Counted from the stretch's first letter, positions 2,641 to 31,816 are shown. The stretch: 36,006 bases of DNA from a virus (IMGVR_UViG_3300009528_000582:1-36006), one strand, 5' to 3'. The notes: a model not told the origin generated them from the sequence alone. Numbers and translations are program-made.

Positions 2641-3186
2641 TTATGCCTCCACGCTTGCTACCAGTACCTCCGCGCCGACGACGTTGTTCTCGTCGTCGTC
2701 GAAGAAATCCTGGATGTCCTGTATGCTGAACTCGTCGTCGGCAAGCACCGGGCCGCCGTTATAAGAGACCTCGATATCTATAGTATTCGGGCCGCGCGCC
2801 CGCACAGTGACGGTGGCATCGGTTACGTGTTCCTTGAATTCGCTAAGCACCACAGATCTATACCACGCTTTGGTGCCCTTGCCTTTTTGCCGATACATAC
2901 CGAGCACGGTTTCGCGCGCGGTCTCGGTAGCAAGGTTCTCCGACCAGGCCAGACCCCACAGTTCGTAGTAGCGGCGCAGGGTTAGCCTGTCCGCGTACTG
3001 CGCCCAGATGCCCAGATACATGAGCTTGAGCCTGTCCCAGAGCATGGACAGGGCCGCGGCGACCACGGCCAAAATCGAGCGCACCACGCCGCGCGTCCGC
3101 CAGTTGGTTACTTCCGGGGCCTCGGCTTGCATCTGGGTCTTCATGTCGGTAAAAACTTCGTTAGCTGTTTTAAAATGAAGACTCAT
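2641..3186 (-). CDS. Baseplate J-like wedge protein (Mu gp47-like), short form
   Basis: N-terminus FKT..EV..DM...TNW..GVVRSIL; GT...Y and RGPNTIDI motifs of baseplate J; only 181 aa. Confidence 0.75.
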   Translation of the reverse strand: MSLHFKTANEVFTDMKTQMQAEAPEVTNWRTRGVVRSILAVVAAALSMLWDRLKLMYLGIWAQYADRLTLRRYYELWGLAWSENLATETARETVLGMYRQKGKGTKAWYRSVVLSEFKEHVTDATVTVRARGPNTIDIEVSYNGGPVLADDEFSIQDIQDFFDDDENNVVGAEVLVASVEA

Positions 3187-3368
3187 TAAGTCCTCCTTCC
3201 TTTATTTCGATAACTCCCCCACAGCCTCAAGTAATACTTTCTCCTTTTACGTCTGATCCACTGCGGGTTAATGGCATTCCCCACACAGAATTGATATAGC
3301 TCATCATAGCTTTCGGAAACCCAATAACGGCAATTGTTCATCATAAGGCGACCTTCGGCAAGCATCAC
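3186..3368 (-). CDS. Small AT-rich protein, DUF4031-like
   Basis: 60 aa, overlaps both neighbours (translational coupling); YWVSESYDELYQFC...NPQWI resembles the DUF4031 pattern as I recall it (LV.D...ELH.FA...G....WF). Confidence 0.45.
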   Translation of the reverse strand: MMLAEGRLMMNNCRYWVSESYDELYQFCVGNAINPQWIRRKRRKYYLRLWGSYRNKGRRT

Positions 3369-3763
3369 TGCCCCTTGATCCGTTTTATCTCCAGCGCCAT
3401 CTTCTGCGGCTGGACCAGGGATACGGGGATCACCTCGCAGGAGAAGCCTGCATCCGTGAACTCAATTGTATAGCGTCCGCGCACGAGCCGATCCTCGCGT
3501 TCCAAAGGCTCACGGATAGCGTTCGTAAGATCGGCGAGCTCAAGCCCACTCTCAGGCATGTTCACGAACTCCGGCAGCCGGGTTCCTACCGTATAGGCCA
3601 ACGCCCAATCGTAGTACTGACACCACAGCTCGTTTAGAAGGTCCTGCTTCAGACACTCGCGGCCTTCCTGCAGCGCAAAATCCCCGTCTTCAATAACCAC
3701 GTCGAGGATCCTCCCGTCACTGGTATCTACTTCCAGCTTGATGTCACGGCCGAGGTCGATCAC
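3365..3763 (-). CDS. Baseplate wedge / sheath initiator (Mu gp46 / gp25-like)
   Basis: DLGRDI...GDFAL..G.ECL.QDL...GTRL...L.REDR pattern; GAGGA RBS; located between spike and J. Confidence 0.7.
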   Translation of the reverse strand: MIDLGRDIKLEVDTSDGRILDVVIEDGDFALQEGRECLKQDLLNELWCQYYDWALAYTVGTRLPEFVNMPESGLELADLTNAIREPLEREDRLVRGRYTIEFTDAGFSCEVIPVSLVQPQKMALEIKRIKGQ

Positions 3764-3771
3764 CTTTCCTC

Positions 3772-4434
3772 CTAATCCAGTTTGTTTATCAGCGACAAGA
3801 TGCCTGGGAGCGTGCTTGTCTGAAGCGGCGGGGTTGTGGGATCCCCTGGTTTAAGCGTGCCGTGCGTATGAGAAGAAAGCCAGAGCTGCAGCATGTTGCC
3901 CAGCACGGCCTGGTTACTTCCCGAAGGCCCAAGGACAATCTGCGGCGCTACGATCTGTTTCGAGATCCCGACCTCTTCCTTGGAAGTCTTGAGCACCTTG
4001 ACGCTCGCGGCGCCAGAGGTCTGCAGCTCAACATTATTCTGGTTATCTACGGTTAGATAGAAATCCTCACCCTTCTTAAGGATAAAATAGTCCCACTCCT
4101 GACACGCCTCTATAGTCGGTCTGCCGTCTACCTGGGAGACCAGCACCTCGGTGTCCATCTTCGGCACGAGGATAAAGCCCAGGTCGTCGGCAAGGTTCAT
4201 TACCCTGAAGCTCATCGGCACGTACTGGAGTAATTCTTCGCCTTCCTTCTCCGGCTGCACGTCGCACCAGAACCCGTAAGGCTCACGGTCAGGCAAAGCC
4301 CAACCCGCAGGAGTCAGGAACTGCCGCGCTGTAACCTTGCCTACAATAGCATCCTGATTAAGGTCAGAGCCCATCAGCTTCTGCAGTATTTCTTTTCCCG
4401 TTCCGGGCTGCGTTACAGATCTCGGACCACTCAT
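3772..4434 (-). CDS. Baseplate spike protein (Mu gp45 / P2 gpV-like)
   Basis: N-terminal OB-like region (CDVQP...P..DTEVLV) and C-terminal HTH (His-Thr-His) metal motif followed by TTPP; ATG at 4434 overlaps the upstream stop (ATGA). Confidence 0.8.
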   Translation of the reverse strand: MSGPRSVTQPGTGKEILQKLMGSDLNQDAIVGKVTARQFLTPAGWALPDREPYGFWCDVQPEKEGEELLQYVPMSFRVMNLADDLGFILVPKMDTEVLVSQVDGRPTIEACQEWDYFILKKGEDFYLTVDNQNNVELQTSGAASVKVLKTSKEEVGISKQIVAPQIVLGPSGSNQAVLGNMLQLWLSSHTHGTLKPGDPTTPPLQTSTLPGILSLINKLD

Positions 4435-18439: not shown

Positions 18440-19423
18440 CTACAGCGCCTTGATCACGCTTACCGCTCTGGCAAGGATAAGATCGCCTTCGGCCAGGACG
18501 ATGGGCGGGATGGAGCTATCGGCAGAGATGAGCAGATGCTGATCGCCGCGCCGGACGTAGAACTTGAGCGCGGTCTCGCCTTGCACGAGCGCGACGACCA
18601 TGGCGCCGGGGGCAAGGTGCTCGCCCTCATACGGTTCGCACGCTACCTGATCGCCGTCCTGAACTGCCGGGGCCATGGAGTTGCCCCGGACCTGAAGCGC
18701 GAACGCACCGGGGTGGCGGATAGCGTCTGCGGCTACTGCGACGTTACCCAGGGGCACGACCTCGGGCGCGAACGGATTGCCGCCCGGCACTATGCCCAGG
18801 ATAGGGATCCAGCGGATTGGGGCAGGGGTAAGCTCCTTTGAGGGGATCTCGCCGTGCTTCAGTCGTTCGATGATCTGTTCGGTTTCGGAAAGCTTCATCT
18901 CGCCCTCTCCGGTGCAGAGCCAGCGCAGGCGCACGCCGAGCGCGGCGGCAAGCTTCTCAAACAGAGACTCATCCGGCGTGCGGGCGCCCGATTCCCAGCG
19001 CGAGACCAGGCTGGAGCCGACGCCAAGCTTACGGGCAAACGCGGCCTGAGATAGCTTGTGTGCTTTGCGAGCGTATTTAATGCGGCGAGAGAGATCACGC
19101 CAGTTGGGAGGAGTCAGTTTGTCCATATCGGCTCGGGTTCTCCGCATCAGGTCCAGCATTGGTTTTACCCCTGGGCTTTCCGTAATCGCTCTCACCGGAC
19201 TCCGCTCCATCATCCCCTCACCGGTAAGAAGCCAGTTGAGGTTGACTTCCAAAGCATCGGCTATGCGAACGAGCGTATCTCGCCGGGGATTTTTATACGT
19301 TCCCGTCTCCCAACGAGAAATTGCGGAATGCCGAACATCTAAAATACGTCCTAGAGCTTCCCCAGAAAGCCCTCGTTTTTTGCGAGCGTATCTAATTCGG
19401 GAACCTATAGTATCAACAGCCAT
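18440..19423 (-). CDS. Phage repressor: two tandem XRE HTH domains plus S24 (LexA/CI-type) peptidase
   Basis: Two copies of RI.YARK...LS......L.V....SRWE.G...L.V...WL.TGEG.M; then IPILG.VPGG, V.GNSM.P and ALK catalytic motifs. Start is ATG 19423 or TTG 19438. Confidence 0.92.
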   Translation of the reverse strand: MAVDTIGSRIRYARKKRGLSGEALGRILDVRHSAISRWETGTYKNPRRDTLVRIADALEVNLNWLLTGEGMMERSPVRAITESPGVKPMLDLMRRTRADMDKLTPPNWRDLSRRIKYARKAHKLSQAAFARKLGVGSSLVSRWESGARTPDESLFEKLAAALGVRLRWLCTGEGEMKLSETEQIIERLKHGEIPSKELTPAPIRWIPILGIVPGGNPFAPEVVPLGNVAVAADAIRHPGAFALQVRGNSMAPAVQDGDQVACEPYEGEHLAPGAMVVALVQGETALKFYVRRGDQHLLISADSSIPPIVLAEGDLILARAVSVIKAL

Positions 19424-19478
19424 ACTTAAAGTCCTCAATTAGGGACAAAAGACTTGACAAGCTTCCCGAATTGGTTAC
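19388..19478. promoter_or_regulatory. Three candidate repressor operators (16-bp imperfect palindrome centred on AATT)
   Basis: 19388-19403 (reverse complement TTCCCGAATTAGATAC), 19431-19446 GTCCTCAATTAGGGAC and 19463-19478 TTCCCGAATTGGTTAC; the last lies in the spacer and -10 of the early promoter. Confidence 0.6.
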
Positions 19479-26760: not shown

Positions 26761-27150
26761 ATGGCACGCAAAGGAAAGTCGCCAGGGACGTGTGAGTATC
26801 CCGACTGCGGGAAGCCTGCCGTCCACCCAAACTTTACGATCAAAACCCCCTTCTTTACGGCGCGAGTCCACATTATTCGTATGGGCCGGTACTTGTGCGA
26901 GGAACACCTGCTCCTGGCGATGCAGCAGAAGCGGCTGCCCGAACTGGGGCGTGCGCCCGGCGAGGGGATAGAGTTCTCGCGCAAAGCTTTCTGCGAGCAC
27001 CGCAAGGAATCGGTCAGCTTCGAGGAGTGCACTAAATGCTTTGAGGCAAAAGAACACGAGAAGGGATTCAACCATATCGGCTGCCAGGATGCGTTCCTAC
27101 AGCCCTCGCCCCTTGCCCCTTTGGATAAGGAATTCAAGGAGGCAGGATGA
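26761..27150 (+). CDS. Cys/His-rich putative zinc-binding protein
   Basis: CEYPDC...LCEEH plus FC-x11-C-x2-CF-x13-C; AGGAGG RBS. Confidence 0.65.
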   Translation: MARKGKSPGTCEYPDCGKPAVHPNFTIKTPFFTARVHIIRMGRYLCEEHLLLAMQQKRLPELGRAPGEGIEFSRKAFCEHRKESVSFEECTKCFEAKEHEKGFNHIGCQDAFLQPSPLAPLDKEFKEAG

Positions 27151-27734
27151 CAACGTCTACCAGGCAAAAAGAGTTCCAGCTCGGCGAGGCCCAGATAATT
27201 GCGGCGGAGATCCGGCAAGCTTTAGAGGTCGTCGCCGAGCGGATTGAGATAGTCGGATCTATTCGCCGCAGGCTGGGCTGGGTGCACGACATAGACCTGG
27301 TGCTGATCCCCCAGGGCGAATGGATACAGAAGGCAAAAGGTAACCTGCAGCCCATGCCCGGGCACAACCACTGGTTCGACATCCCGCGACTGATCAACGA
27401 TATGGCCGGGCGCGTTATCAGGAAAGGACCGGCGATAATCACGGCCGAGGTCCAAGGCATTCAGGTAGACGTCTACTGCGCTACCGAGGAACCCTGGGGA
27501 ATTCTGATGCTGATCAAGACCGGGCCTAAGGAGTTCAACGTCGAGCTGTGCAAACGCGCGCAGAGGCTGGGCATGCACCTGAACCCGCAGACCGGCATCT
27601 GGAAAGACGGCAAGTGCATCGCCTCCCGGACCGAAGAGGAGATCCTCAAAGCCCTGGGTCTGCCTTACATTAAGCCGGTTGACCGGGACAAAGCCACAGG
27701 CGCGCTTGCGAGAGGAGAGTTCTCGATATGGTAA
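27147..27734 (+). CDS. Minimal DNA polymerase X family nucleotidyltransferase (palm and thumb only)
   Basis: VGSIRR...DIDLV...QVDV (three Asp), TGPKEFN..L...A...G..LN..G and TEEEI...LGL.YI.P..R motifs; no lyase, HhH or PHP domains. Confidence 0.88.
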   Translation: MTTSTRQKEFQLGEAQIIAAEIRQALEVVAERIEIVGSIRRRLGWVHDIDLVLIPQGEWIQKAKGNLQPMPGHNHWFDIPRLINDMAGRVIRKGPAIITAEVQGIQVDVYCATEEPWGILMLIKTGPKEFNVELCKRAQRLGMHLNPQTGIWKDGKCIASRTEEEILKALGLPYIKPVDRDKATGALARGEFSIW

Positions 27735-29086: not shown

Positions 29087-29454
29087 TGCATCGCGTTGTC
29101 CCGCTTTTCGTTCCCCTCTGCTCCATCTCGCAAGCCGCCGTTATGCTTACCAAGGCCGGGTTCAAGACCGCGCCCAGCACTGTTCGCAAGTATATCCTCG
29201 AAGGGCGATTGCTCCACTCCAAGGCGGGCAAGCTGGTGCGCATCCGGCGTTCAGACGTAGCGGCTCTGATCGAAAAAAAGACAGCCGAGCAGCGATTTAT
29301 CCTTGAGACCCTCTCGGTAAAACAGATCGCCGAGAAGCTGCAAGTCTCTCCCAGGTGGGTTCAGCGCCGATGCAGGCCGCCCTATGCAAGGAAACTGCGC
29401 ACCGGCTGGCGGATTTACCCCTGGGCGGTCAAAGAATTTATCAAGGAGACATGA
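29083..29454 (+). CDS. Double HTH_17 (excisionase/MerR-like) DNA-binding protein; candidate late-gene activator
   Basis: SI.QAA.ML.....TVRKYI.EG.L...K.GK..RI.RSDV and LSVKQIAEKL.VS.R.V.R.....A.K...GWRI; ATG 29083 overlaps the upstream stop; sits at the Mu C/Mor position. Confidence 0.75.
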   Translation: MMHRVVPLFVPLCSISQAAVMLTKAGFKTAPSTVRKYILEGRLLHSKAGKLVRIRRSDVAALIEKKTAEQRFILETLSVKQIAEKLQVSPRWVQRRCRPPYARKLRTGWRIYPWAVKEFIKET

Positions 29455-30737
29455 TGTCTGAAGACAAAAAGGGCAAACCCACGCCGAAGACGGGCGAAAT
29501 CTCCGCACCGAAAAAGATGGAAGTCGCCAGGGGGTATCTGGGGTTCTTTAGCGCGACGCTGCAGAACATGCCGGTGGCAACCCCGGAGTTCTTCAAGCGG
29601 CACGCGGGCAAAAGCTTCTGGGATATAGCTGAAGAGATGATGCACGATGCGCATATCCAGAGCGTATTCCGCTCCCGGCGCGCGGGCGTCGCCGGACGGA
29701 ACTGGGAGATCGTGCCCGCTGACGACTCGGCAAAGGGCTCCGAGGTTGCGGCGCGTATTAAATCAATCCTGGCCCCGATTCCCAACTTCGAGCACGCGCT
29801 CGCCCATCTCCTCAAGGCTACTCCGTACGGACACAGCGTAATTGAAATTATGTGGCGCATCGATCCGGATAGGGTAAGTGTTGAGGCACTGCGAACCCGT
29901 CGAGCGGACAGATTCACGTTAGGGTCCCAGAACACGCTGCGGCTTTTAGACTCGGAGACCGGCCAGCCGCGCGACCTGCCCGACCGCAAGTTCATCTGCC
30001 ACCGCCACGACCCTCAGGACGACGCGCCCTTTGCAAGCCCGCTTCTTTTCTCGTGCTACTGGCCCTGGTACTTCAAGAAACACGCCCACGGCTTCTGGAT
30101 GATTGTTGCCGAGAAGTTCGGTGTGCCTTCGATAATCGGCAAGTACCCGTCGCACTTTACGGATGACGACGTCTCCTCCTTGATCAAGGCGCTCGTAAAC
30201 CTGCAGCAGGACTCGGTCGCCGCCGTGCCCGCGGACACCGTGATAGAGACCGCGCTGGCCAAGGTGAGTGTCGGGGAAAAGGGCAACTTCTTCCGCGAGC
30301 TTTTAGACTTCTGCAACGCGGAGATCTCCAAATGCGTGCTGGGCGGGACCCTTACCCAGGAGGTCGGCGAGAAAGGCTCCTATGCGGCGGCCAAAACCCA
30401 CCAGGAGGTCAGGCACGAGATCATCGCCGCCGATGCTCAGCTTCTGCAAACCACTATCAACTCCACCTTGATTCGCTGGCTTACCGACTTCAACTACGGC
30501 CCCGACGTCCCGGCACCCGTGTTCCAGATCGACTACAAGCAATCGCGCGGCACGCCTGAGTTTGCCACGACCTTGAAGACGTTAAGCGAGATAGGAATGC
30601 CGATCCCGCAACGATTTGTGCGTGAGACCTTTGGCATACCTGAAGCCGCAGAAGACGAGGAGGTTCTTGAACCCCGCACTCAGGGCATCCCTTTTAAGGA
30701 ACGCTCCCCTTTCGAGAAGCCCCCGGACGCATCGTAA
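29451..30737 (+). CDS. Portal protein (Mu gp29 / DUF935)
   Basis: D.HI.S....R...V....W.I.P; A.PYG.S..EI.W; W....EKFG.P...GKY; CN.EISK.VLG.TLT...GSYA...TH.EVR. Start is ATG 29451 or 29454 with AAGGAG. Confidence 0.95.
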   Translation: MMSEDKKGKPTPKTGEISAPKKMEVARGYLGFFSATLQNMPVATPEFFKRHAGKSFWDIAEEMMHDAHIQSVFRSRRAGVAGRNWEIVPADDSAKGSEVAARIKSILAPIPNFEHALAHLLKATPYGHSVIEIMWRIDPDRVSVEALRTRRADRFTLGSQNTLRLLDSETGQPRDLPDRKFICHRHDPQDDAPFASPLLFSCYWPWYFKKHAHGFWMIVAEKFGVPSIIGKYPSHFTDDDVSSLIKALVNLQQDSVAAVPADTVIETALAKVSVGEKGNFFRELLDFCNAEISKCVLGGTLTQEVGEKGSYAAAKTHQEVRHEIIAADAQLLQTTINSTLIRWLTDFNYGPDVPAPVFQIDYKQSRGTPEFATTLKTLSEIGMPIPQRFVRETFGIPEAAEDEEVLEPRTQGIPFKERSPFEKPPDAS

Positions 30738-30760
30738 AGAGCGGTAAGTCCTACCGCCTG

Positions 30761-31816
30761 GTGCGGACCGGGGAGCGCCGCGCAGTTTACTTCGCCGAGG
30801 ATCTGCTCGGCGAGGAACGCAAGGACACCCCTGATTTTCTTGACCGCGACCGCCTTGCCGAGGAGGAGACCTTTCAGCTTGAGCGCCTTGTAGGGCTTGC
30901 CGATCCTGCCAGGCCGCAAGGCGAGGCAAAAAGATTTTACACCTCATTCCGCAAACGTGTAGTCGAGCCGCTCGGCAACCGCATCCTCGATCTTGAATCC
31001 GAGCGCCAGCTCGCAGACCTTGACTGGCGTTTCTTCGGCGACGTCTGGGACGAGGTGGCACCGCATCTGGGGCGGGGCCAGTTCTTCGCCAACCTCATGG
31101 GCGTAGAACAAGCAGACAAACTACTGCACGAGCGGTTGGAGTTTGCAGAACTGACTCGCGGCTATATGGCACGGTTCGATGAGCCGCTCCTGAACGAGGA
31201 GGCGGTGCGCGCCTTACAGCGCAAGGTCCCGGTGACGGAAGCGGAGATAAAGGCACTGGAGGCGCGCTACCGCGCTCAGGCTTTCACGATTTCCAAAGTT
31301 ACTTCTGCGGATCTGATTGAATATATCAAGCAGGACCTCGCCGCCCATATAGCCAAAGGCGGCACCTTTACCGAGTGGCAGGCTAGCGTTAATAAGCTCC
31401 TTATCCGGCGCGGGGTCGGCGGGCTGGATCCTCGATATCTGAGAACCGTCTACCGAACGAACGTGGCCTCAGCATACAATCTCGGTCGCTGGGAGCAGAC
31501 GCAGCGCAACGCCCACCTGGTCGAGTTGCTTGAGTATCACGCGATCCTCGACGAGAAGACCAGAGACGACCACCGCGCCATGCACGGGGTCAAGGCCCCG
31601 ATAGACGCCCCGGTGTGGGGCGAGTGGTATCCGCCGAACGGGTATAACTGCAGATGCATCGTGCTCCCTATCACCCCTTACGTGGCGCGTGAATACGGGC
31701 TGGTCGCAAGCCCGGCCATGCCGGACAAGCATCCTGACAAAGGCTTTGCCCACCACCCGGCCCAGGGCCTGCCGCCGCAGTATCTGGAAAGGGCCGCGGC
31801 TTATGGGATTCAATAA
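30761..31816 (+). CDS. Minor head morphogenesis protein (Mu gp30 / MuF)
   Basis: AFTIS...L.TVYRTN..SAYN.GR...Y.AILD..TR..H...HG......W...YPPNGYNCRC.V...PDKGF..P. No RBS at GTG 30761; the frame is open from 30698. Confidence 0.92.
   Translation: MRTGERRAVYFAEDLLGEERKDTPDFLDRDRLAEEETFQLERLVGLADPARPQGEAKRFYTSFRKRVVEPLGNRILDLESERQLADLDWRFFGDVWDEVAPHLGRGQFFANLMGVEQADKLLHERLEFAELTRGYMARFDEPLLNEEAVRALQRKVPVTEAEIKALEARYRAQAFTISKVTSADLIEYIKQDLAAHIAKGGTFTEWQASVNKLLIRRGVGGLDPRYLRTVYRTNVASAYNLGRWEQTQRNAHLVELLEYHAILDEKTRDDHRAMHGVKAPIDAPVWGEWYPPNGYNCRCIVLPITPYVAREYGLVASPAMPDKHPDKGFAHHPAQGLPPQYLERAAAYGIQ

What the first reader, a model, noticed from the sequence alone, without database searches (positions are those of the whole stretch)
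30689..30773. Candidate programmed -1 frameshift fusing portal to MuF
Seen: in the portal frame, C CCT TTC (30707-30713) is an X XXY YYZ heptamer, and its -1 frame is the MuF frame, open from 30698 to 31816. Seven nt downstream a nested stem-loop begins (CCCCGG 30721-26 with CCGGGG 30768-73; CGCATC 30728-33 with GGTGCG 30760-65; GCGGTA 30741-46 with TACCGC 30752-57). The only nearby MuF start (GTG 30761) has no RBS and is buried in that stem. An SD-like AAGGA lies just upstream. A second heptamer, C CCT TTT (30689-95), would shift straight into TAA. Known: slippery heptamer plus 5-9 nt spacer plus stem is the standard -1 frameshift architecture, and phage cases are mostly tail chaperone, capsid and tube genes. 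Inference: MuF is made as a minority ~790-aa portal-MuF fusion built into the portal ring, which would set its low copy number.
Basis: partly seen in the sequence, partly recalled or inferred. Interest (0 to 1): 0.85.

Follow-up and report, generated by a model that had tools for sequence, protein, structure and literature searches.

The report
Frameshift joins phage portal to MuF
Near the end of this uncultured Mu-like phage's portal gene, a slippery seven-base site that relatives keep at the same spot likely makes some ribosomes slip back one base, so the next head protein (MuF) would be made as a tail on a minority of portal subunits.

Summary
Observation confirmed. The portal gene (29454-30737) carries C_CCU_UUC at 30707-13, followed by the most stable 60-nt fold of the portal-MuF region; the -1 frame runs to 31816 and encodes a portal-tail-like helical domain plus MuF. 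It is no assembly error: two other records and one run's contig match without indels, and three diverged relatives (portals 82, 62, 61% identical) keep the -1 overlap and an H_HHU_UUY heptamer a fixed distance before a conserved MuF-frame motif, one changing Pro to Phe yet staying slippery (U_UUU_UUC). One relative has no start codon before that motif. Against: the stem is significant only here and in the closest relative, the upstream AAGGA is probably too close to stimulate, a weak coupled start at GTG 30761 is not excluded, and no RNA or protein data exist. Best reading (0.8): programmed -1 frameshift giving a 427-aa portal and a minority 787-aa portal-MuF fusion. Distant Mu-like phages show A9-A10 runs at the same junction, and others are fused in frame. 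I found no paper describing it; this scan noted the same idea on six other genomes (AI notes, not independent support). New variant of a known kind; interest 0.66.

The parts
29454..30737 (+). Mu-type portal gene, 427 aa in frame 0; ends about 27 residues after the portal core, without the roughly 100-130-aa tail of most Mu-type portals
   Evidence: PF06074 Portal_Mu 5e-100; phrog_113; solved relatives 8rka (526 aa) and 9khx (512 aa) match only up to residues 411 and 405; tail lengths
30689..30695 (+). Second heptamer C CCT TTT; a -1 shift meets TAA at once; not conserved, probably incidental
   Evidence: L001 reads ATA CCG TTC here
30696..30700 (+). SD-like AAGGA, 6 nt before the heptamer; role not supported
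   Evidence: relatives have purine-rich GAGG/GGGAGG at varying distances
30707..30713 (+). Slippery heptamer C_CCU_UUC (Ser-Pro-Phe codons), predicted -1 shift site
   Evidence: kept as CCCTTTT (L001 4257), CCCTTTC (L014 1337), TTTTTTC (L088 4248); motif class efficient in E. coli (PMC4066793)
30719..30776 (+). Nested stem-loop (core 30721-30773), predicted 3' stimulator; contains the portal stop and GTG 30761
   Evidence: against L001 1 of 44 paired positions changes (A-U to G-U) versus 6 of 19 unpaired, Fisher p 0.002
30735..30737 (+). Portal stop codon TAA
30761..30763 (+). GTG, the only common start codon in the MuF frame before 31055; no good SD, paired in the stem; CTG in L014 and ATC in L088 at the same gapless position
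30707..31816 (+). -1 frame; adds 367 residues after Phe420 in the predicted 787-aa fusion
30833..31153 (+). Helical domain related to the C-terminal tail of ordinary Mu-type portals and to the linker of in-frame portal-MuF fusions
   Evidence: hhalign probability 65% (E 6e-5) to 88 portal tails and 90% (E 2e-6) to 18 fusion linkers; the window's own sequence alone gave no hit to the tail profile
31325..31663 (+). MuF domain
   Evidence: PF04233 8e-24; phrog_220 minor head protein and DNA pilot 3e-51

Best explanation
A likely programmed -1 ribosomal frameshift at C_CCU_UUC (30707-13) would make two products from one mRNA: the 427-aa portal and, less often, a predicted 787-aa protein in which portal residues 1-420 continue into a portal-tail-like helical domain and the MuF minor head protein. 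Shown: the site, the frames, the domains, the stability of the fold in silico, and the conservation. Inferred: ribosomes pause at the stem, tRNA-Pro (CCU to CCC) and tRNA-Phe (UUC to UUU) re-pair one base back, and the fusion co-assembles into the portal ring with its MuF end inside the head, so the shift rate would set the number of MuF copies per head (about 8-17% would give one or two per 12-mer, the number reported for SPP1 gp7).
For: (1) 4 of 4 distinct clade junctions with DNA (window, L001, L014, L088; portals 82, 62, 61% identical) have MuF in the -1 frame with an overlap and an in-frame H_HHU_UUY heptamer. (2) The distance from heptamer to the MuF-frame Y-x-x-E motif is the same without gaps in all four while the portal stop moves (-28 versus -31 nt). 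(3) L088 reads T TTT TTC: three bases changed and Pro became Phe, yet the site stays slippery; chance of the two distant loci both being slippery given their residues is about 0.003 from window codon use. (4) Background: 0 of 13 other x-Pro-Phe sites outside the portal end are slippery. (5) Six more clade portals known only as proteins end in or near x-P-F (P0003, P0006, P0022, P0025, P0028, P0030). (6) L014 has no ATG/GTG/TTG until 65 nt past the stop, after the conserved motif; called starts in homologues fall at four different places; G/D-K-x-Y/F is kept in the -1 frame upstream of the GTG. (7) Among unique overlapping portal-MuF junctions an in-frame XXXYYYN heptamer occurs in 14 of 29 in the -1 frame and 1 of 53 in the +1 frame (Fisher p 4e-7, but the loci are related and were fetched with queries from this clade; counted as only 4 events p is 0.05). 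(8) The fusion is a natural architecture: 21 of 215 loci and P0031, P0050 are single ORFs; also Microbacterium phages (PMC7302621 passages). (9) C_CC.U_UU.C gives high-level frameshifting and H_HH.U_UU.Y is among the best motifs in E. coli (PMC4066793 passages). (10) The same phage has a classic tail-chaperone A_AAA_AAC site.
Against: The stem is not significant in L014 (z -0.6 and -1.3) or L088 (z +0.8 and -0.5) and its register differs; no two-sided covariation was seen. Only four distinct junctions have DNA, two of them close. GTG 30761 is kept in L001, and P0074, P0076 and P0077 were called from the same aligned position. L088 has a TTG 20 nt past the stop with a marginal AGGA (-5.8 kcal/mol). 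In the P0006/P0078 pair (paired only by a shared contig length in their clusters) the called start would overlap the portal stop, the usual coupling pattern (my inference from the two protein sequences). F-x-E motifs recur in these linkers, so part of the P-F-E conservation may be protein-level. In L191, L194, L195 a linker+MuF protein has its own ATG and SD, so the tail-like domain does not by itself prove fusion. Synonymous suppression past the stop is not significant on its own. Nothing here measures translation.
Confidence: 0.8

Rival explanations
1. MuF is a separate, weakly made protein: ribosomes ending at the portal stop melt the stem and re-initiate at GTG 30761 (or an equivalent nearby start); the stem serves to repress independent initiation and the heptamer is incidental.
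For: GTG kept in L001; same aligned start called in P0074, P0076, P0077; the stem buries the GTG; L001 has TAAGGAG at the stop, which the inner hairpin could bring near the GTG; free linker+MuF ORFs exist in other lineages; most Mu-type junctions use an ATG at the portal stop.
Against: No common start codon before the conserved motif in L014; start position not conserved; does not explain the fixed -1 frame, the fixed heptamer position or the CCC to TTT change in L088.
Confidence: 0.13
2. An ancestral in-frame fusion was broken by a one-base change and MuF is a dead or dying frame.
For: In-frame fusions are common among relatives; a sister group of short portals has no MuF downstream.
Against: The MuF frame is intact in all four loci, with invariant residues across 43-87% identity and mostly silent change between window and L001 (88 synonymous among 293 unchanged residues of 346 codons).
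Confidence: 0.03
3. The frame change is made by RNA polymerase slippage and not by the ribosome.
For: Distant loci have A9-A10 runs at this junction, long enough for transcriptional slippage as I recall it.
Against: This clade has no run longer than T3-T6; it keeps the XXXYYYZ phasing that ribosomal slippage needs.
Confidence: 0.02
4. Assembly or sequencing indel.
For: Metagenome-derived record; no raw reads available (one search used contigs).
Against: Same junction in L002, L004 and X1; same frame relation in three diverged phages from other samples.
Confidence: 0.01

Closest known systems
Tail assembly chaperone -1 frameshift of long-tailed phages (lambda G/GT; SPP1 17.5/17.5* at UUUUUUC, PMC6316719)
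   Same: XXXYYYZ heptamer near the end of a structural gene; short and extended products in a set ratio; L088 uses the same U_UUU_UUC heptamer as SPP1 17.5
   Different: Here the gene is the portal and the extension is a whole downstream head protein with its own fold; a strong 3' stem is present in this phage
Capsid and tail-tube extension frameshifts (Lactobacillus phage A2 major head protein -1, seen only as a reference title; SPP1 gp17.1/17.1* +1, passage)
   Same: A minority of subunits of an oligomeric virion part carry a C-terminal extension
   Different: Portal ring of 12, extension would face the inside of the head, and it is a protein that most phages make separately
Single-ORF portal-MuF fusions (Microbacterium subclusters EA3, EA5, EA8 and cluster EB, PMC7302621; L043, L099, L105, L184-L186, P0031 here)
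   Same: Same domain order portal-linker-MuF
   Different: Encoded in one frame, so every subunit carries MuF unless cleaved; here it would be a minority
SPP1 gp6/gp7 and Mu gp29/gp30 (separate portal and MuF)
   Same: [quoted passage not shown]
   Different: Non-covalent targeting and an own start codon; SPP1 portal is of another family
IS3/IS911 orfA-orfB and E. coli dnaX -1 signals
   Same: Bacterial -1 signal with heptamer and stem 5-8 nt downstream (PMC4066793)
   Different: Pyrimidine heptamer instead of A_AAA_AAG; upstream SD stimulator not supported here

Membership tests
Programmed -1 ribosomal frameshift (bacterial type) | X_XXY_YYZ heptamer phased in the upstream frame | tested here: met
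   efficient motif class per PMC4066793
Programmed -1 ribosomal frameshift (bacterial type) | Downstream ORF in the -1 frame, open from the site and under selection | tested here: met
Programmed -1 ribosomal frameshift (bacterial type) | Site, direction and position conserved among homologues | tested here: met
   4 of 4 distinct junctions with DNA; six more only at protein level
Programmed -1 ribosomal frameshift (bacterial type) | 3' structure 5-9 nt downstream (optional in bacteria) | tested here: inconclusive
   Strong in window and L001 (z -4.7, -5.1), not significant in L014 and L088
Programmed -1 ribosomal frameshift (bacterial type) | Upstream SD-like stimulator at suitable spacing (optional) | tested here: inconclusive
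   AAGGA 6 nt before the heptamer; spacing varies in relatives; optimal spacing recalled, not from a call
Programmed -1 ribosomal frameshift (bacterial type) | Measured transframe product | not testable with these tools
   No RNA, ribosome-profiling or proteomic data at hand
Mu-type portal (PF06074, Mu gp29) | Portal_Mu domain above gathering score in a transposable-phage genome | tested here: met
   335 bits versus 23.9; transposase, Gam, Mu gp36, terminase in the window
MuF1 (PF04233) minor head protein | Phage_Mu_F domain directly downstream of a portal gene | tested here: met
   85 bits versus 29.6
MuF polymorphic toxins | C-terminal toxin domain and downstream immunity gene | tested here: not met
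   Only about 50 residues follow the MuF domain and Pfam finds no other domain
Single-ORF portal-MuF fusion | One continuous reading frame | tested here: not met
   Stop at 30735-37, MuF in the -1 frame

The most novel reading that the evidence does not exclude
Mu-type phages tune the portal:MuF ratio along a continuum of four gene arrangements (separate start, in-frame fusion, -1 recoding after the portal tail, -1 recoding before the tail), and recoding at this junction has arisen several times with different slippery sites (C_CCU_UUY here, A9-A10 runs in at least two other parts of the tree). The portal ring would then be a mixed 12-mer in which one or two subunits carry the DNA-pilot protein covalently, which makes the role and dose of MuF directly testable by tuning one site.
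Probability: 0.6. Interest if true: 0.78.

Novelty: new variant of a known kind. Interest (0 to 1): 0.66.

Why it matters
Known phage frameshifts are almost all in tail chaperone, capsid and tail-tube genes; I found none described for a portal. If real, it explains how a minor head protein can be both placed at the portal and limited to a few copies, a question left open for the MuF/gp7 family, which also carries toxins into hosts in other phages. It also means that gene callers mis-annotate these loci (truncated MuF with arbitrary starts), and that portal-MuF fusions are more common than single-ORF counts show.

Tried and rejected
Run search: no RNA holder listed; only contigs, no raw reads; X2 covers only parts of the portal and not the junction. 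More clade DNA: viral scans with the portal, MuF and both alignments added none beyond L001/L002; 272 genomes of L088's phylum gave only L088's own locus as a close match; GenBank phages gave only portals under 35% identity, not examined further. AlphaFold2 on the MuF frame with 9 sequences was low confidence (mean pLDDT 49.6); not used as evidence and no fold search run. The tree (96 of 145 portal cores, ordinary separate loci thinned by half, partial sequences included, FastTree, midpoint root) supports the clade (1.0 with its short-portal sister) but is too poorly resolved at depth to order events; L118 and L201 are labelled 'sep' there although they repeat the A-run junctions of L117 and L111. 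The repeat finder found no ungapped inverted repeat of 12 nt or more at the junction. No complex was predicted: it would not bear on the frameshift. Upstream heptamer 30689-95 rejected (not conserved, meets a stop). AAGGA as stimulator not accepted. Pseudoknots in L014/L088 were only looked for by eye, with nothing convincing. L195's G-run heptamer is probably chance (own start and SD). Literature searches found no portal frameshift; 'portal' does not occur in the held main text of PMC5009743 (first 300,000 of 449,034 characters), PMC3711429, PMC4066793 or PMC10885494. No supplements were read; those of PMC10885494 (MuF-like genes are named among its 'false positives') and PMC3711429 may bear on novelty, and most subscription papers are not in the library.

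Full report
Setting. The window is a 36,006-base virus record of a Mu-like transposable phage: repressor, Gam, transposase, AAA protein, portal, MuF, endolysin and terminase on the + strand; protease, decoration, capsid, Mu gp36, sheath-like, tail and tape-measure genes on the - strand. The closest relative with a named host lies in a 215-kb scaffold of a candidate division WOR-3 genome (L088), so WOR-3 is the likely host (inference).

Observation. All motifs are at the stated coordinates. The portal ORF is 29454-30737 (427 aa, PF06074). The MuF frame is -1 relative to it and open from 30698 to 31816 (PF04233 at residues 210-322). The stem-loop folds as described (-30.2 kcal/mol, z -4.7) and is the most stable of 2307 60-nt windows across both genes. 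GTG 30761 has a weak anti-SD pairing and is the most buried of 33 start positions scored; the next common start is 294 nt further on. The predicted fusion is 420 + 367 = 787 aa, 89 kDa.

Not an indel. L002 and L004 hold the 300 bases around the junction unchanged, and a contig of run X1 spans it without differences (possibly the source sample). More telling, three diverged phages keep the arrangement.

Conservation in the clade. Portal searches gave four distinct junctions with DNA: the window (with L002, L004), L001 (82% portal identity), L014 (62%) and L088 (61%). All four have MuF in the -1 frame, an overlap of at least 37 nt, and an in-frame heptamer: CCCTTTC, CCCTTTT, CCCTTTC, TTTTTTC. 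Read in the -1 frame from the heptamer, the four align without gaps to a Y-x-x-E motif 27 codons on, with G/D-K at codons 13-14 and Y/F at codon 16, while the portal stop sits at different places. L088 changed all three X bases together, turning Pro into Phe but keeping the slippery pattern. From window codon use the chance that L014 and L088 both read slippery given their residues is about 0.003, and 0 of 13 x-Pro-Phe sites outside the portal end do. The upstream I-P-F heptamer is lost in L001, a neat internal control. Among the 30 closest portal proteins, 10 have the longer tail and all 10 carry P-F (or F-F) near the end; four stop one codon later (P-F-E-stop). All three heptamers belong to H_HHU_UUY, named among the most efficient E. 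coli motifs, and C_CC.U_UU.C is said to give high-level frameshifting (PMC4066793, passages).

Starts. L014 has no ATG, GTG or TTG until 65 nt past the stop, which is after the conserved motif; L088 has a TTG at +20 with a marginal SD; the window and L001 have GTG at +26. At the GTG's gapless position L014 has CTG and L088 ATC. Database proteins were called from four different positions: three (P0074, P0076, P0077) at the GTG position, P0078 nine codons earlier, P0080 and P0079 far downstream.

The stem. Between window and L001, 1 of 44 paired positions changes (A-U to G-U) against 6 of 19 unpaired (p 0.002). In L014 and L088 folds exist but are no more stable than shuffles, and registers differ. 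The stimulator is therefore lineage-specific or not captured by simple folding; the heptamer is the conserved element. The AAGGA is 6 nt from the heptamer, shorter than the spacing I recall for -1 stimulators.

What the -1 frame adds. Most Mu-type portals have a 100-130-aa tail after the core, and MuF then starts at an ATG near the stop; the solved JBD30 and Mu-type portals are 526 and 512 aa with the core ending near 410. This portal lacks that tail in frame 0, and the first part of the -1 frame resembles it (hhalign 65% to tails, 90% to linkers of in-frame fusions; weak at single-sequence level). The shift would thus rebuild the architecture portal-linker-MuF seen as one ORF in 21 of 215 loci, in P0031 and P0050 and in Microbacterium phages (PMC7302621, passages). 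[quoted passage not shown] A sister group of short portals with no MuF downstream suggests that the tail-less form is a selected product, though its role there is unknown.

Wider survey. Of 215 loci (227 fetched plus the window, less 13 unoriented or duplicate ones), 141 had separate portal and MuF frames, 21 were fused, 32 gave no MuF hit, 15 ran off the contig and 6 gave no portal hit. Among 105 unique separate junctions, those with an overlap had an in-frame heptamer in 14 of 29 -1 cases and 1 of 53 +1 cases (not phylogenetically independent). Nine of the 14 are A9-A10 runs in distant phages: after a full tail (L018, L048, L117, L129) or before it (L111, L199, L200, L217, L219); L111, L129 and L200 have no common start near the junction, whereas L018 has an ATG with SD and L199 an ATG at the stop. 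These may be ribosomal or transcriptional slippage, and homopolymer errors cannot be excluded singly. L191, L194 and L195 show that linker+MuF can also be a free ORF.

What is known. Nine library searches and term look-ups in nine papers (passages only, no supplements) found in-frame fusions and tail-chaperone, tube and capsid frameshifts but no portal frameshift. The scan's own notes list the same idea on six other genomes, one with C_CCU_UUA/C sites; none matched this portal by sequence or place. They are unchecked AI notes, seen after I had formed my reading, and are not counted as support.

Verdict. A real, conserved recoding-type junction; programmed -1 frameshift 0.8, coupled separate start 0.13, other 0.07. 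New variant of a known mechanism in a gene pair for which I found no description; untested at the protein level. Interest 0.66.

Noticed in passing
window 9289-9283, - strand: A_AAA_AAC at the end of the 136-aa ORF 9687-9277, just before the tape measure gene; the -1 frame stays open for 65 codons to a TAA overlapping the tape-measure ATG: the classic tail assembly chaperone frameshift.
   Followed up: partly
L005-L013, L015, L084-L087, L089, L092, L093 (portal at about 3001-4150 in most): Sister group of 383-408-aa portals, many in WOR-3 genomes, with no MuF hit downstream. In the four read (L005, L086, L092, L093) the portal ends a compact cassette of repressor-like, Gam-like, about 195-aa, membrane, and HTH genes followed by unrelated genes: a conserved portal-only mini element, perhaps a satellite or domesticated remnant (gene labels by likeness to window genes, not scanned). 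L092 shares a genome with the full prophage L088; L093's genome gave no match to the MuF query.
   Followed up: partly
L018/L019, L048, L117/L118, L129: Full-tail portals ending G-K-K-K-A on an A9 run with MuF in the -1 frame; K-K-S..F-A-E is kept upstream of a Met that moves or is absent. A second candidate frameshift clade.
   Followed up: partly
L111/L201, L199, L200, L217, L219: A9-A10 runs placed before the tail-like domain, as in this window, in unrelated portals.
   Followed up: partly
L021/L095, L031: Portals extended in frame by about 300 residues ending in a P-P-Y-H-P-x-C-R motif: probably in-frame fusions to a diverged MuF that my profile missed, so the count of 21 is a lower bound.
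   Followed up: no
window 27147-27734 +: 195-aa protein with a DNA polymerase beta thumb domain (PF14791) among the early genes; also in L001 and L088.
   Followed up: no
window whole: Head module is split: portal, MuF and terminase on the + strand at the right end, protease, capsid and tail genes on the - strand at the left, diverging from the repressor; lysis genes lie between MuF and terminase. A split head module was noted as unusual for KS10 (PMC2628397).
   Followed up: no
window 18440-19438 -: Repressor with two HTH domains and an S24 peptidase domain.
   Followed up: no
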